Shown one piece after another: positions 4,529-45,036 of a stretch of 64,000 nt of DNA. Both the position numbers and the translations under genes were made by a program. This DNA comes from Octopus vulgaris (Eukaryota). The stretch's first letter is position 1; each line of letters starts with the position of its first letter. The stretch spans positions 12,524,001 to 12,588,000 of the forward strand of contig OX597830.1 of NCBI GenBank assembly GCA_951406725.2, written 5' to 3'. Under the pieces are notes generated by a model that worked only from the letters and a program-made list of their open reading frames with translations, had not been told where the DNA came from and made no database searches.

Positions 4529-4742
4529 TCGCCATGTTGATTCGCTAGCTTCTGCACGCATATTTTTTTTCTCTCCTTCTTTCTGTGTTTTTTTTTCTCT
4601 GTGTATCTTTCTGTTGAAGAGCGTAGGATCGAAACGTTAAAGACTTGTTTTATTTATATTTCCTGAGCGCCATACTAATACAATTGTTTGTTTGTATTCC
4701 ACCTGCCTTCGTCTTTTGTCTATTTTCATAAAGCTTCACGTT
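4529..4742 (+). mobile_element. ~200-bp element with HHR-like CUGUNGA core (copy 1 of 5)
   Basis: Starts tcgccatg. 4606-4643 reads tcttt CTGTTGA a gagc gtag gatc GAAA cgT T aaaga. Ends at (TA)n. Confidence 0.75.
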
Positions 4743-4782
4743 ATATATATATATATATATATATATATATATATATATATCA

Positions 4783-4985
4783 TGTACTTGTTTCAGTCAT
4801 TAGACGGCAGCCATGCTGGGGCATCAGCTTCAAGTGTTTTAGTTGGAACACATCGACCCCAGGATATATATTTAAAGCCTGGTACTTATTCTATCCGTCT
4901 CTTTTGCGGAACCGCTAAGTCACAAGGGTATAAACACACCAAAACCGATCGTCAAGCGGAGGTGGGGGGATAAACACAGACATAG
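4783..4985 (-). mobile_element. SINE family A, 3' half
   Basis: tacttgtttcagtcatt...ggtacttattctatc...gaaccgctaagt matches family A. Confidence 0.8.
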
Positions 4986-5051
4986 ACACGCACACATATA
5001 TACATACATACATATATATATATATGATTATATATACACACACAGTGTACC

Positions 5052-5400
5052 GGCTAGAAATAAGAGTCAAAACGACTCAAAGTAGCCTCACAGAGCACTA
5101 ACCCCATGAATTGACGATAAATGGGGGAGCAAGCTACAGCACCTTTCCATGGTTAGATGAACTCACAAAATTAAGCAAACAGACATAACCTTATACCATG
5201 ATCTCGGACTCTGGGGTACCAGTGAGTTCCTCTGATGAGAACTAAAATTATGATGACCAGAGTCCGAAAACACGTGAGGAGAATGTGTTTGTTTATCTCA
5301 CCATAGAAAGTTGATTTAGCTTGCTGCCCCGCTTTCCGTCAATTCATGAAGTTAGTGCTCTGAGTGGTTATTTTGTGTCTTTATGATTCTTATTTCTAAC
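5052..5400. repeat. Fold-back element with central degenerate hammerhead motif (5228-5280, +)
   Basis: Arms ~5052-5172 and ~5281-5400 are approximate reverse complements. Centre: tcct CTGATGA gaact...agtcc GAAA acacgtg agga. The cleavage triplet is GUG, so this copy is probably inactive. Confidence 0.7.
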
Positions 5401-5515
5401 AACTGCCTGTACTATATTGTACCTTAGTTTATTAACTTGCCTTTAAGTTTTAATTACTAACGAGCCACCTATATTATAACATGTGTAGTATATTTTTGAC
5501 ATATTAATATACTAT

Positions 5516-41203: not shown

Positions 41204-41821
41204 TTCGCCATGATAGATCGCTAGCAACTAAACCTTTTTCTATTTTCTCTCCCTGTTTATTTCTGTGTTCCTTTCTGTCGATGAGCGTAGGCTCGAAATG
41301 TAAAAGACTTTCTCACTTCCGAGCGTTAAATTAATACATCTGTTTGTTGTTTATACACCCGCTTTTGTCTTTTGTTTTTTTTTTGGTAAATTCTCACTAT
41401 ATATATGTATATATATATGTGTGTGTGTGTGTGTGTGTGTATGTATGCATATATGAATATATGTATATATATATATATATATATATATATACATATATAT
41501 ATATGTATATATATATATATGTATGTATGTATATATACATACATACATACATATATGTGTATATTTATATGTACACACATACATACACACATATATTTGT
41601 TAATATATAATATGTGTGTGTGTGTAGTTGAAATTTACAGAAAAACAAAAGACGAAGACAGGTGTATAAACAGCAAGCAGGTGTATTAGTTTGACGCTCG
41701 GGAAGGTGAGAAAGTATTTTACGTTTCGAGCCTACGCTCTTCAACAGAAAGGAACACGAGGAAATAAACAGAGAGAGAATATAAAAAAAAAACTTGTGGA
41801 GTTAGCGGTCAATCATGGCGA
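41204..41821. mobile_element. Tail-to-tail inverted pair of CUGUNGA-family elements (copies 3 and 4) around a (TA/TG)n array
   Basis: 41204-41398 (+) and 41624-41821 (-). Cores at 41270-41307 (CTGTCGA) and 41715-41752 (CTGTTGA). Confidence 0.82.
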
Positions 41822-41829
41822 TAAGAGGG

Positions 41830-43025
41830 TATTGTAGTTCGCTGGAAACATTGCATATTCTTTGTGAAGTGTAAAGTGTCTGGATTGGCACAACAATGCG
41901 GTGTAGACTATAATAACCATTATAAATAATTTAATTATTCATAGTCGAATATAATATTTCGGAATATAAAAATTCTTTTTTCAGATATTGCTAGGAATTA
42001 ATGGACTCACTGTTATAATCGGATTTCTAACGGTTACTGAAATTTGTCTGAATTCCTCATGACAAGTGCGTGAGGGCGGTCATGTCTCGAGCTCGTGTGC
42101 GTTGGCAGATCCGCAGCGCTGCTACCAAGTTATTATTATACGAGCATTTTTTTTCTCTACACCAGCATGTTATCACTGTGCGTGAAGGGTGTCGACGTAG
42201 TTAAATAATATAGTGATTGCTAATTTCCAACCTGTTTTTAATATGGGGCCCTAGTCTGTCTGTGAAGATAGCCTCCTTAATTCTTAAATTTCCTAAATTT
42301 CTATCATTGGGCTCAGTTGTGACTGTTATGTTTTTCTCGGTGTTCCGGCATCTGTCTAGACGTTTTCTGAAGGAGGAAGCTCGCGTGTTTCGATGTTCTT
42401 TAATGCGAATATGTAATGGTCTTGCTGTGCTGCCCACTTAGAAATTGTTGCATTTGTTACATTGGATTCGATGTATAACATTTGCCCGTTGGCATAAATC
42501 TGTGTCACGGATGGGGCAGTTAGCTAGTGGGCATTGATTGCTGTCCCTTACTCGTTTCTCTGCTAGGTGTCTTCTAAGAGAGGGGCCGGAGTGGGCTAGT
42601 TGCATGCCTAACCCTTCTCTTCTTATGGCTCTTCGGATATCTGTAGTTATCCTCTCACTAAAATTGGGTATTTTAAGTAAGCATGTGTAGCTGGGTTTTC
42701 TATCTGTTTGGCATGTTTGTCGTCTCGGGTACTTAAGCCGATTCACAATGGATATAAGATACCCGTTGGTTTTCAATACCTCTAGAAAGCGTGTGGTGTG
42801 GCTCACCTTGTCCTCTGTCCAGCTGCACTTGTTCTGGATGCGTATCAGTTCATTTCTGGTATATACTATTTTGGCACCGAATGGAAGGGCTGAACTGTAA
42901 TGAGCAAACATATCTCTACTGGCAGTTTTCCTGTAGAACTCGGTGTGGATCTCTTCTTTTTCCGTTATTTTCAGTTGAAAGTCGAGCATCGATAAGGATC
43001 CAGTGTTGTCGGGTATATTTGTGAA
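41830..43025 (-). pseudogene. Penelope-like element fragment (RT C-terminus plus GIY-YIG)
   Basis: LDFQL...TEFYRK...HYSSALP...CPLANCPIRDTDLCQRANVIHRIQCNKCNNF*VGSTARPLHIRIKEH...LRIKEAIF. The Tyr of the YIG/YVG motif is mutated to a stop. Confidence 0.87.
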
Positions 43026-44865
43026 TGTATATATATATATATATATATATATAAATGTATAATTCTATACTGTCGACGTATGGACGGATGGGTCGAGAGA
43101 CGCATATATTTGAGCTGGTGGTTATATAATATATATATGTATACATTTATATAAATATATATACCTCTCTCTCTCTCTCTTCTATATATATATATTATAT
43201 ACATCGTAGCACTCCGTCGGTTACCACGACGAGGGTTCCAATTGAACCGATCAACGGAACAGCCTGCTCGTGAAATTAACGTGTAAGTGGCTGAGCACTC
43301 TACAGACACGTGTACCCTTAGCGTAGTTCTCGGGGAGTATCAGCGTGACATGGCTGGCTTTTTGAAAATACAGGTACAACAGAAACAGGAAGAAAGAGTG
43401 AGAAAAAATTGTGGTGAAATGATTTTACTGCATCCAGGGATTATTCCAGTATTACTTCTGGTGAGGTAGTGAATTCGACGCTGCCGCGCTTCTTTGTGCC
43501 TCCTGCCGCGATATGGGTTCATCTGGTTTTGCAGATAAAATTATTCGGTAAAGTAAGCCTGAAAGTGACGGGTTTTGTTAGGGGCCACCGAAACTTTAAG
43601 TCGCATGAAACCGAATCAAACTGCTTTAAATAATACATGTAAATCCTATTAAATGTGTTTAGTGCCTTTTTTGTCTTTCATGCGTTTTCTTTTATGTGTA
43701 TACATATGAGCGTGTATATGTATTCCTAAATGTATGTACATATCCATTTTACATAGAGTTGGATTCGTTGTGTGGATGACCGTCGACAGTTTTATGACCT
43801 GCAAAACCATAGCCATCTCTTTCATGATATTCGTTATCTAGATGTTTTTAACAGCCAGTTATATTAATCTCCTTATCTACGCAGAGCCATCACATCAAAA
43901 GTAGAAAGTAACAATTTCCCGAGGTAGTTATTAAATGCATTTATTTCGGACTACATTTTACATATATCTATTAGTTTGTCACCATCTGTTTTTTTTGTTG
44001 TTTTTTTTTTGCCGTCTGGGTTCTTCTAGTCAAGTTATCTAGTTTATATATTTTGTATTTACATATACGTCTATAAATGTTATTTTAACATATATTTGAA
44101 TGTATGTGTGTGTGAGCATGCGTGGATATGTCTCTTCATTATATGCGTATGTGAATGCATACGTTTACGTAAATCTCCAAATTTTGGGGCGTGGCTACTC
44201 AGACTGTATTATCACATTGTATTACATTATATATCTGCATATATATATACATACACACACACACACACACACACACAAACACACACACACACACACACAC
44301 ACACACACACACACACACACACATATATATATGCAGATAGATAGATAGGTAGACAGACAGACAGATAGATAGATAGATAGATAGATAGATAGATAGATAG
44401 ATAGATAGATAGATAGATAGATAGATAGATAGATAGATAGATAGATAGGTAAATTTCAAAACTTAAACCGAAGGACAAGGCAAAATCGGAAAATACATAC
44501 ACAAGATATGGGTATGCTTATTCCTCGTCACTTATCGTCCAGAAGAAATTACAATTTCACGCCTTTAACGACAATATTGTTCATTTTCTATGACGTTAGC
44601 AGTGGAAAACTGTTGAGAATAGTGAGCGGACGTTGAGAACAGTGACGAAAACAATGGGCACAGGTAATGGTACGACTATAATGTACAAACGAAACAAAAC
44701 ATACCATATACAAACAAAATAAAGGCCGTACCTCTCTGAAACAAAGATAGTACGAAATTTGTGTAAAAGTAACGTAAGGAAAATGTCCGGAAGGTCCGGA
44801 AACGGAAAGTAGAAATGGAGAGATTATGAGTGAAATGGAGAGATTATGAGTGAAAAAACATATAT

Positions 44866-45036
44866 ATTTTTTTCTCTCCCTTTTTTCTCTCCTTGTTTTT
44901 TCTGTGTACCTTTCTGTAGAAGAGCGTAGGCTCGAAATGTAAAAGACTTTTTCTATTCCTGAGCGTTATACTAATACATCTGTTTGTTTTGTACACCACC
45001 TGTCTTCGTCTTTTGTTTTTTGTCGTAAACTCTCCT
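44866..45036 (+). mobile_element. CUGUNGA-family element (copy 5, 5'-truncated)
   Basis: 44909-44946: ccttt CTGTAGA a gagcgtaggctc GAAA tgT A aaaga. Ends at (TA)n. Confidence 0.75.

What the first reader, a model, noticed from the sequence alone, without database searches (positions are those of the whole stretch)
4606..44946. Five-copy element with a non-canonical hammerhead core CUGUNGA (A6U)
Seen: copies at 4606(+), 22843(-), 41270(+), 41715(-) and 44909(+) read (c/t)cttt CTGT[T/A/C]GA n GAGC gtag GCTC GAAA yGT H aaaga. Individual copies carry lesions (GATC in stem II at 4606, GAAACGAA at 22843). Position 6 is U in all five, while position 7 varies (U, A, C, U, A), which is the free N7 position of an HHR core. 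Four copies share a discrete 5' start (cgccat) and all end at TA-rich microsatellite. Established: A6 is nearly invariant in natural HHRs. Inference: either an active natural core variant, or a catalytically attenuated HHR fold kept as a recognition structure for a PLE reverse transcriptase.
Basis: partly seen in the sequence, partly recalled or inferred. Interest (0 to 1): 0.72.

Follow-up and report, generated by a model that had tools for sequence, protein, structure and literature searches.

The report
Penelope retrotransposon hammerhead with inherited A6U
The five repeats are short end-pieces of a very abundant Penelope-type jumping gene whose small hammerhead-shaped RNA motif has U in place of a normally fixed A in about 96% of copies, including young intact elements, which likely weakens self-cutting (untested) and suggests that the element spreads from uncut RNA.

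Summary
The five cores are real. They are not a separate mini-element: they are short pLTR copies of an autonomous Neptune/Nematis-type Penelope-like retroelement (about 4.5 kb, 1,076-aa RT plus GIY-YIG ORF). Genome-wide, position 6 is U in 18,519, A in 239 and C/G in 533 exact cores. All 37 motifs in 20 long-ORF elements have U6. In 88 flank-selected copies only N7 and H17 are polymorphic beyond CpG decay. Across seven subfamilies 26 of 28 core positions are invariant versus 63 of 94 tail columns. A sister clade keeps A6 and the same stem II, with a covarying stem I pair. Copy 5' ends pile up at a likely transcription start, not at the cut site, so uncut RNA is the likely template. Published mutagenesis predicts low activity at this position; cleavage is untested. 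Verdict: new variant of a known kind. The scan noted A6U before, in this genome (e1-9897094) and in shark-like genomes.

The parts
4503..4741 (+). Short pLTR copy of the youngest subfamily (tail ends AAGCTTCMCGT), flanked by (TA)n on both sides
   Evidence: 94.6% to the full-length element in L168 over 242 nt; 5' end; subfamily
4606..4643 (+). Type I minimal hammerhead motif: stem I 4606-4610/4639-4643, core 4611-4637 with U6 at 4614 and U7, H17 = U at 4638; stem II broken by C to A at 4628
22754..22944 (-). Short pLTR copy, A7 subfamily (assigned by eye from its tail), starts just upstream of CGCCAT, ends in (TA)n
22844..22881 (-). Hammerhead motif, U6 A7; U16.1 changed to A, which breaks the A15.1-U16.1 pair
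41202..41397 (+). Short pLTR copy, C7 subfamily (tail AAATTCTCAC), starts at the CATTCGCCATG hotspot, ends in (TA)n
41270..41307 (+). Hammerhead motif, U6 C7, H17 = A at 41302; C15.2 to U (CpG decay) and bulge A to U
41627..41823 (-). Short pLTR copy, older U7 subfamily (tail GTAAATTTCAAC), tail-to-tail with the 41202 copy across one microsatellite
41715..41752 (-). Hammerhead motif with consensus core (U6 U7, H17 = A); stem I G1.4 changed to U
44868..45035 (+). More strongly 5'-truncated pLTR copy, A7 subfamily (by eye), lacks CGCCAT, ends in (TA)n
44909..44946 (+). Hammerhead motif, U6 A7, H17 = A at 44941; C15.2 to U (CpG decay)

Best explanation
The five copies are short terminal-repeat (pLTR) pieces of an autonomous Penelope-like retroelement whose minimal hammerhead motif carries an inherited U at position 6, and this motif likely still folds but likely cuts only slowly or only with protein help, so the element likely spreads from uncut RNA. 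Shown: the element's anatomy (pLTR, about 720 nt, 1,076-aa ORF, pLTR, TA repeat), U6 in young intact elements, constraint on the other core positions among source lineages, an A6 sister clade. Inferred: transcription starts about 70-80 nt upstream of the core at an initiator-like site; the RT nicks a (TA)n target and starts about 95-105 nt downstream of the cut site, where the element's own RNA reads UAUAUAU; it copies through the uncut motif and runs off the RNA 5' end, giving the dominant 190-200-nt copies; longer copies come from the downstream pLTR of read-through RNA. The motif is kept because a residual, regulated cut or its fold within the ribonucleoprotein still matters; which of the two is open.
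For: Autonomous element: 20 of 150 listed RT matches have open frames over 1,000 aa; 17 of these 20 have the motif on both sides of the ORF and all 37 motifs found have U6; RT-EN region 557-587 of 587 aa identical; Pfam RVT_1 E 1.4e-7. Family state: U 18,519, A 239, C/G 533; U6 in 83 of 88 flank-selected copies; A6 copies carry the flanks and N7 of different subfamilies, so they are sporadic changes. Constraint: 26 of 28 core positions invariant across 7 subfamily consensuses against 63 of 94 tail columns, Fisher p 0.007; N7 takes all four bases and H17 only A or U. Homology to canonical cores: sister clade with A6 and the same stem II (4,389 exact matches; A6 in 59 of 61); tree support 99/98 for the U6 clade, 100/100 for the A6 clade; stem I pair 4 is C-G, G-C/G-U or A-U by lineage. 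Attenuation: all single mutants in the CUGA turn had low activity in a type III hammerhead (PMC9901934, passage); natural A6C gives kobs under 0.1 per min (PMC3088659, passage). Uncut template: 38 of 88 5' ends lie in 17 nt around the ATG of CGCCATG against 4 in the next 50 nt upstream, same pattern in the A6 clade (22 of 30); no spike at the cut site (4 of 33 at 0 to +2); in an Anolis PLE catalytic mutants do not impair insertion, the ribozyme needs the protein, and RT starts 85-92 nt past the cut (PMC11167929).
Against: No cleavage data exist for this motif. The A6 sister clade shows no more cut-site junctions than the U6 clade (4 of 35 against 4 of 33, p 1.0), so the genome gives no sign that U6 cuts less than A6; both may be near-silent. 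Stem II is invariant within the U6 clade, so it gives no covariation there. Isolated motifs fold no better than shuffles in 5 of 6 cases. Mutagenesis data come from other hammerhead types, and A6U itself was not seen in the passages read. Direction of change (A to U once, or U ancestral with reversal in the sister clade) is inferred by parsimony; DNA of the nearest outside relatives was not available. The transcription start is inferred from copy ends and a recalled Drosophila initiator consensus.
Confidence: 0.65

Rival explanations
1. Active natural core variant: U6 is tolerated in the dimeric or protein-bound form, and the motif cleaves as well as A6 PLE hammerheads.
For: Everything that chemistry needs apart from position 6 is conserved among lineages: C3-G8, G12, A13, A14, A15.1-U16.1, and H17 is A or U in all 7 subfamily consensuses. 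PLE hammerheads can be protein-assisted (PMC11167929); A6C becomes metal-selective rather than dead (PMC12192606, passage). Cut-site junction frequency equals that of the A6 clade.
Against: CUGA-turn mutants were low in activity and not rescued by second changes other than the C3/G8 swap (PMC9901934). Most copies include the intact cut site and end at the upstream hotspot. In the young subfamily U6 favours a competing helix with A15.1 (pair probability 0.86).
Confidence: 0.13
2. Catalytically dead fold: the motif never cuts and is kept only as an RNA structure or sequence bound by the element's protein, or as part of the pLTR promoter/leader.
For: No cut-site footprint; stem II loop GUAG is as invariant as the catalytic bases among subfamilies, as a binding surface would be; a sub-lineage of the A6 clade carries G17, normally uncleavable, in 6 of 61 copies that share other markers; catalysis is dispensable for insertion in vitro (PMC11167929).
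Against: In the U6 clade the only free positions are the two that hammerhead chemistry leaves free, and H17 avoids G at subfamily level. In the Anolis element the minimal protein-binding RNA lay downstream and the full pLTR was not required.
Confidence: 0.17
3. Neutral relic: A6U disabled the motif once and the rest has simply not had time to decay or is homogenised between subfamilies.
For: Subfamily tails are still 77-94% alike; the core is short.
Against: U6 lineages differ by up to about 30% of amino acids in the thumb-endonuclease region, yet 26 of 28 core positions are invariant while N7 has changed repeatedly (p 0.007 against the tail; N7 tracks subfamily, permutation p 0.0002).
Confidence: 0.05

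Closest known systems
Minimal type I hammerheads (min-HHR) in pLTRs of metazoan Penelope-like elements (Cervera and De la Pena 2014, PMC4209133; main text parts 1-2 of 4 read, supplement file 2 searched)
   Same: Type I topology, extra base between positions 9 and 10.1, G10.1-C11.1 pair, palindromic 15.2-16.2 with no helix III loop, short helix I, location in both pLTRs, mostly present as single truncated copies, predicted dimer cleavage with low activity.
   Different: U at position 6 across a whole clade; helix II only 4 bp. The core variant they report is U3-A8. Their supplementary alignment has no CUGU core (3 of 3 CUGU hits lie outside the core).
Poseidon element of Anolis carolinensis, PAc (Frangieh et al. 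2024, PMC11167929; parts 1-2 of 4 read)
   Same: Internal RT start about 90-100 nt 3' of the hammerhead cut site defines the genomic 3' end; uncut RNA is the template; AT-rich targets.
   Different: Here the ORF starts about 720 nt after the motif, not inside it; the RT start coincides with the element's own TATATAT, which could pair with the (TA)n target, whereas the PAc start is not homologous to the target; PAc has a C3/G8-dependent core, position 6 not discussed in what I read.
Natural A6C hammerhead of phage Bcep176 (Perreault et al. 2011, PMC3088659; passages)
   Same: Natural substitution at position 6 with the rest of the core kept; low but measurable activity there.
   Different: Single phage motif, C not U, not a minimal dimer-type motif, not tied to a retroelement.
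Animal non-LTR retrozymes (Li, Clavereau and Pollet 2026, 10.64898/2026.07.22.740005; parts 1-2 of 5 read)
   Same: Short non-coding repeats with a type I hammerhead, related to PLE pLTRs.
   Different: These copies are nested truncations of a coding element with a fixed 3' end, not head-to-tail monomers of an independent non-coding unit.

Membership tests
EN+ Penelope-like elements (Neptune/Nematis type) | Single ORF with RT and C-terminal GIY-YIG endonuclease | tested here: met
   1,076-aa ORF in L168; Pfam RVT_1 E 1.4e-7 above cut-off, GIY-YIG E 0.0065 below cut-off; ADKG, YIDD, YCISC and YIGQT motifs seen
EN+ Penelope-like elements (Neptune/Nematis type) | Partial-tandem structure giving pLTRs on both sides of the ORF | tested here: met
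   17 of 20 long-ORF elements have the motif up- and downstream about 4.4-4.6 kb apart; full tandems in L161 and L163
EN+ Penelope-like elements (Neptune/Nematis type) | CX2-5CxxC linker before the endonuclease (PMC8557442, passage) | tested here: met
   CSRPRCRTC in L168; similar in the A6 sister clade
EN+ Penelope-like elements (Neptune/Nematis type) | Placement in the Neptune rather than Nematis clade by RT phylogeny against named references | not tested
   The homologues carry no clade names; the tree has no labelled references
PLE minimal type I hammerhead | Core CUGANGA ... GAAA ... UH | tested here: not met
   All positions met except A6, which is U in 18,519 of 19,291 exact cores
PLE minimal type I hammerhead | Free N7 and H17 not G | tested here: met
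   N7 A3 C29 G16 U40; H17 A59 U24 G4 C1 of 88; subfamily consensuses
PLE minimal type I hammerhead | Helix II with G10.1-C11.1, unpaired base after A9, palindromic 15.2-16.2 | tested here: met
   GAGC/GCUC, bulged A in 87 of 88, ACGU palindrome
PLE minimal type I hammerhead | Covariation in helices | tested here: inconclusive
   Stem I pair 4 covaries between lineages (C-G 31 of 39; G-U 16, G-C 7, A-U 4 of 27); a third family has different, paired stems I and II; stem II is invariant within the U6 and A6 sister clades
PLE minimal type I hammerhead | Site-specific self-cleavage (as a dimer or with protein) | not testable with these tools
   Only assembled contigs were available
Non-LTR retrozyme | Independent non-coding unit in head-to-tail repeats, each with a hammerhead | tested here: not met
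   Copies are nested 5' truncations that run into the PLE ORF

The most novel reading that the evidence does not exclude
A6U is a selected, repeatedly evolved brake on Penelope hammerheads: it keeps the fold but locks the free RNA in an off state (U6 pairs with A15.1) so that the RT copies uncut RNA, and cleavage is switched on only inside the element's own ribonucleoprotein; such variants are invisible to CUGANGA searches, so a large part of animal PLE ribozymes has been missed.
Probability: 0.2. Interest if true: 0.72.

Novelty: new variant of a known kind. Interest (0 to 1): 0.45.

Why it matters
What hammerheads do in Penelope-like elements is unsettled (PMC8557442 and PMC11167929, passages read). 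This genome holds a natural pair: a young, intact clade with U6 and a sister clade with A6 and the same stem II, so one base can be tested in its native context for cleavage and for retrotransposition. It also shows that the most abundant hammerhead-like motif found here is missed by the standard core descriptor and by Rfam. The host system is known, the variant has been flagged before by this scan, and without a cleavage assay the result stays a well-documented variant.

Tried and rejected
Separate SINE or retrozyme with a partner element: rejected, the copies run into the PLE ORF. A6 source subfamily inside the U6 clade: rejected, 30 A6 loci spread over several subfamilies. Cut-site footprint: none distinguishable; U6 4 of 33 and A6 4 of 35 junctions at 0 to +2, 9 of 33 and 11 of 35 at 0 to +6 (only (TA)n-abutting junctions from the first 100 listed rows, contig C1; two U6 junctions read +1 by eye but +5 by script). 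Second U6 family (L206, L207, L213, L214, L219, L220, L224, L225, L227, L230): rejected as a type I hammerhead, because H17 is G, stem II is mismatched and GAAAC sits in a competing hairpin. U6 as a unique off-switch: weak, since the A6/C7 sister motif also buries its core in a competing helix (0.69 against 0.86). Single-strand folding: no signal against shuffles in 5 of 6. Expression: no RNA holder listed on record; contigs of runs under organism labels A-E hold the pLTR but cannot show ends, and the variant tables did not list position 6 or 7, so they say nothing on U6 in relatives. Organisms of the nearest outside homologues: no names returned. Lunse et al. (dimer-cleaving PLE hammerhead variants) and Brill et al. 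2024 are not held; I saw only their titles in reference lists, and they or unseen supplements (file 1 of PMC4209133; bioRxiv supplements) may already report A6U. Searches that found no paper reporting A6U in a PLE hammerhead: 40 of 77 listed; 25 of 31; 15 of 27.
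Full report
Observation. The pattern CTGTNGANGAGCGTAGGCTCGAAAYGT matches five places in the window with 0-1 mismatches and none in 100 shuffles. Position 6 is U in all five and position 7 is U, A, C, U, A. Each core lies in a 168-239-nt repeat copy that ends at a TA microsatellite. Rfam did not recognise the motif. The genome is 2.8 Gb in 227 contigs; earlier scan notes call it octopus-like, which I did not test.

U6 is the family state. Exact whole-genome counts for TTTCTG[x]NGANGAGCGTAGGCTCGAAA are U 18,519, A 239 and C or G 533 (90 C and 10 G by eye in the 100 listed). 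That is the pattern of sporadic decay from U, transitions first, and the 30 A6 loci carry the flanks and N7 of several different subfamilies. To avoid selecting on the core I anchored on the flanks alone (18,752 matches, 362 for the reversed control) and tabulated 88 of the first 91 listed rows, dropping 3 chance matches; the last 9 listed rows were not fetched. U6 is in 83 of 88. N7 (A3 C29 G16 U40) and H17 (A59 U24 G4 C1) are the only strongly polymorphic sites; the next highest are CpG sites. N7 follows subfamily (permutation p 0.0002), though part of the C7/U7 mix may be CpG decay.

What the element is. Copies share a fixed 3' end but extend upstream by different lengths, and the longer ones run into an RT and GIY-YIG frame. 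A protein search listed 150 close matches, 20 with open frames over 1,000 aa; I fetched those 20. Seventeen have the motif on both sides of the ORF about 4.4-4.6 kb apart, and all 37 motifs found have U6. The L168 ORF is 1,076 aa with RVT_1 (E 1.4e-7), a weak GIY-YIG hit and a CX4CxxC linker, the mark of Neptune and Nematis elements (PMC8557442, passages). The RT-endonuclease region is 557-587 of 587 aa identical among the 20, so the subfamily is young. The 4606 copy is 94.6% identical to its pLTR; the other four belong to older subfamilies (for two, by eye for two).

The motif is a constrained hammerhead homologue. Seven U6 subfamilies, defined by their 3' ends (148 of 236 copies classified), share 26 of 28 core positions; only N7 (all four bases) and H17 (A or U) differ, against 63 of 94 invariant tail columns (Fisher p 0.007). 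The same genome has 14,656 matches to a canonical A6 pattern, among them a sister family with the same GAGC/GCUC stem II and a three-base loop (4,389 exact matches; A6 in 59 of 61). Its endonuclease region is 53-56% identical to the U6 element; in a 44-row tree the U6 rows form a clade (99/98), the A6 rows a clade (100/100), and the two are sisters (100/100); U6 rows differ by up to about 30% (most near-identical young rows were left out, four rows are under half filled). Stem I pair 4 is C-G in the U6 clade and G-U, G-C or A-U in the A6 clade. A third family has other stems, again paired. The architecture matches the published PLE minimal hammerhead in every described trait but position 6 (PMC4209133). 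One A-to-U change on the stem of the U6 clade is the simplest reading, but the hammerheads of the nearest outside relatives (about 50% identity) could not be read, so a reversal in the sister clade is not excluded.

How copies are made. In 17 of 17 upstream pLTRs the tail continues into the element's own TATATATT and then the leader, while downstream pLTRs end in (TA)n at the same base. The fixed 3' end thus marks an internal RT start about 95-105 nt past the predicted cut, close to the 85-92 nt that follow from the Anolis element's figures (PMC11167929); pairing of the nicked TA target with this tract is inferred. The 5' ends pile up: 38 of 88 lie from 12 nt before to 4 nt after the ATG of CGCCATG, 4 in the next 50 nt upstream, 19 further up and 27 closer to the core; the A6 clade shows the same pile (22 of 30), with its mode 7-8 nt before an ATG at TCATTC. 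This resembles the Drosophila initiator (recalled consensus), and Penelope is known to start transcription in its pLTR (PMC2377424, passages). I infer that the hotspot is the RNA 5' end and that the short copies are run-off cDNAs through an uncut motif. A direct look for copies that begin at the cut found no spike and no difference between clades (4 of 33 against 4 of 35). This fits an uncut template, but it also means that the genome gives no evidence that U6 cuts less than A6.

Does it cut? Not testable here: only assembled contigs were served. In a full pairwise mutagenesis of a type III hammerhead all mutants in the CUGA turn other than the C3/G8 swap had low activity (PMC9901934, passages), and the natural A6C variant runs below 0.1 per min (PMC3088659, passages). 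PLE minimal hammerheads are slow even with A6 (PMC4209133), and in the Anolis element cleavage needs the protein and is dispensable for insertion in vitro (PMC11167929). Folding adds little: isolated motifs are no more stable than shuffles in 5 of 6 cases; in U6/U7 copies U6 pairs with A15.1 in a competing helix (0.86), but the A6/C7 sister has a competing helix too. A small A6 sub-lineage with G17 (6 of 61 copies, all with the A-U stem I pair) suggests that non-cleaving lineages can also amplify. Against a dead relic stands the fact that, in the U6 clade, variation falls exactly on the two positions that hammerhead chemistry leaves free.

Novelty and score. The host system and motif class are known; a clade-wide A6U in intact, young elements was not found in the papers searched, but two directly relevant papers were not held. 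Unchecked scan notes report the same change in this genome and in shark-like genomes; these are leads, not support, and would make A6U recurrent if they hold. What this follow-up adds is the intact autonomous element, the A6 sister clade as a natural control, and the mapping of both RNA-derived ends. I rate it a new variant of a known kind, interest 0.45.

Noticed in passing
L168:3549-3556 and 16 other upstream pLTRs (L153-L171): The fixed 3' end of all copies coincides with the element's own TATATATT, which could let the RNA pair with a nicked (TA)n target; this differs from the non-homologous start reported for the Anolis element.
   Followed up: partly
window 4535-4549, 41210-41224; L168:3344-3358: A four-codon upstream frame M-x-x-R-stop (MIDR, MLIR, MLDR; stops TAG, TAA or TGA) follows the 5'-end hotspot in most U6 subfamilies; the A6 sister often has ATG-TGA at the same offset.
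   Followed up: partly
L118, L264, L286, L382, L401, L407: A sub-lineage of the A6 sister clade carries G at position 17 together with an A-U pair in stem I, a normally uncleavable site inherited by several copies.
   Followed up: partly
window 9067(-), 9316(+), 47003(+): Canonical A6 minimal hammerheads of another abundant family (stem II GGCUG/CAGCC, stem I GACAC/GUGUU); the first two form an inverted pair.
   Followed up: partly
window 54561-54713: Fold-back repeat; on the minus strand from 54603 a CUGAUGA core with stem I CCAGA/UCUGG and a palindromic ACUAGU stem III, stem II poorly paired.
   Followed up: no
L206, L207, L213, L214, L219, L220, L224, L225, L227, L230: Another dispersed repeat with several hammerhead-like half cores (GAAAC, CUGAUGA, CUGUUGA) in an order that does not fit type I; it may relate to the rearranged hammerheads in earlier scan notes on this genome.
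   Followed up: partly
window 15033-17198(+), 58364-59296(+): A 722-codon RT-like frame and a 311-codon endonuclease-like frame of other non-LTR retrotransposons (labels from recalled motifs).
   Followed up: no
window 9789-9980(+), 42393-42998(-): Fragments of more distant Penelope-like endonuclease/thumb regions (39% and 22% identity to the L168 ORF).
   Followed up: no
window 41202-41823; L045, L071, L088: Inverted pairs of pLTR copies (tail-to-tail or head-to-head) within one microsatellite, as described for PLE insertions.
   Followed up: no
window 54780-56219 and 56552-58007: A 1.4-kb tandem duplication at 79% identity.
   Followed up: no
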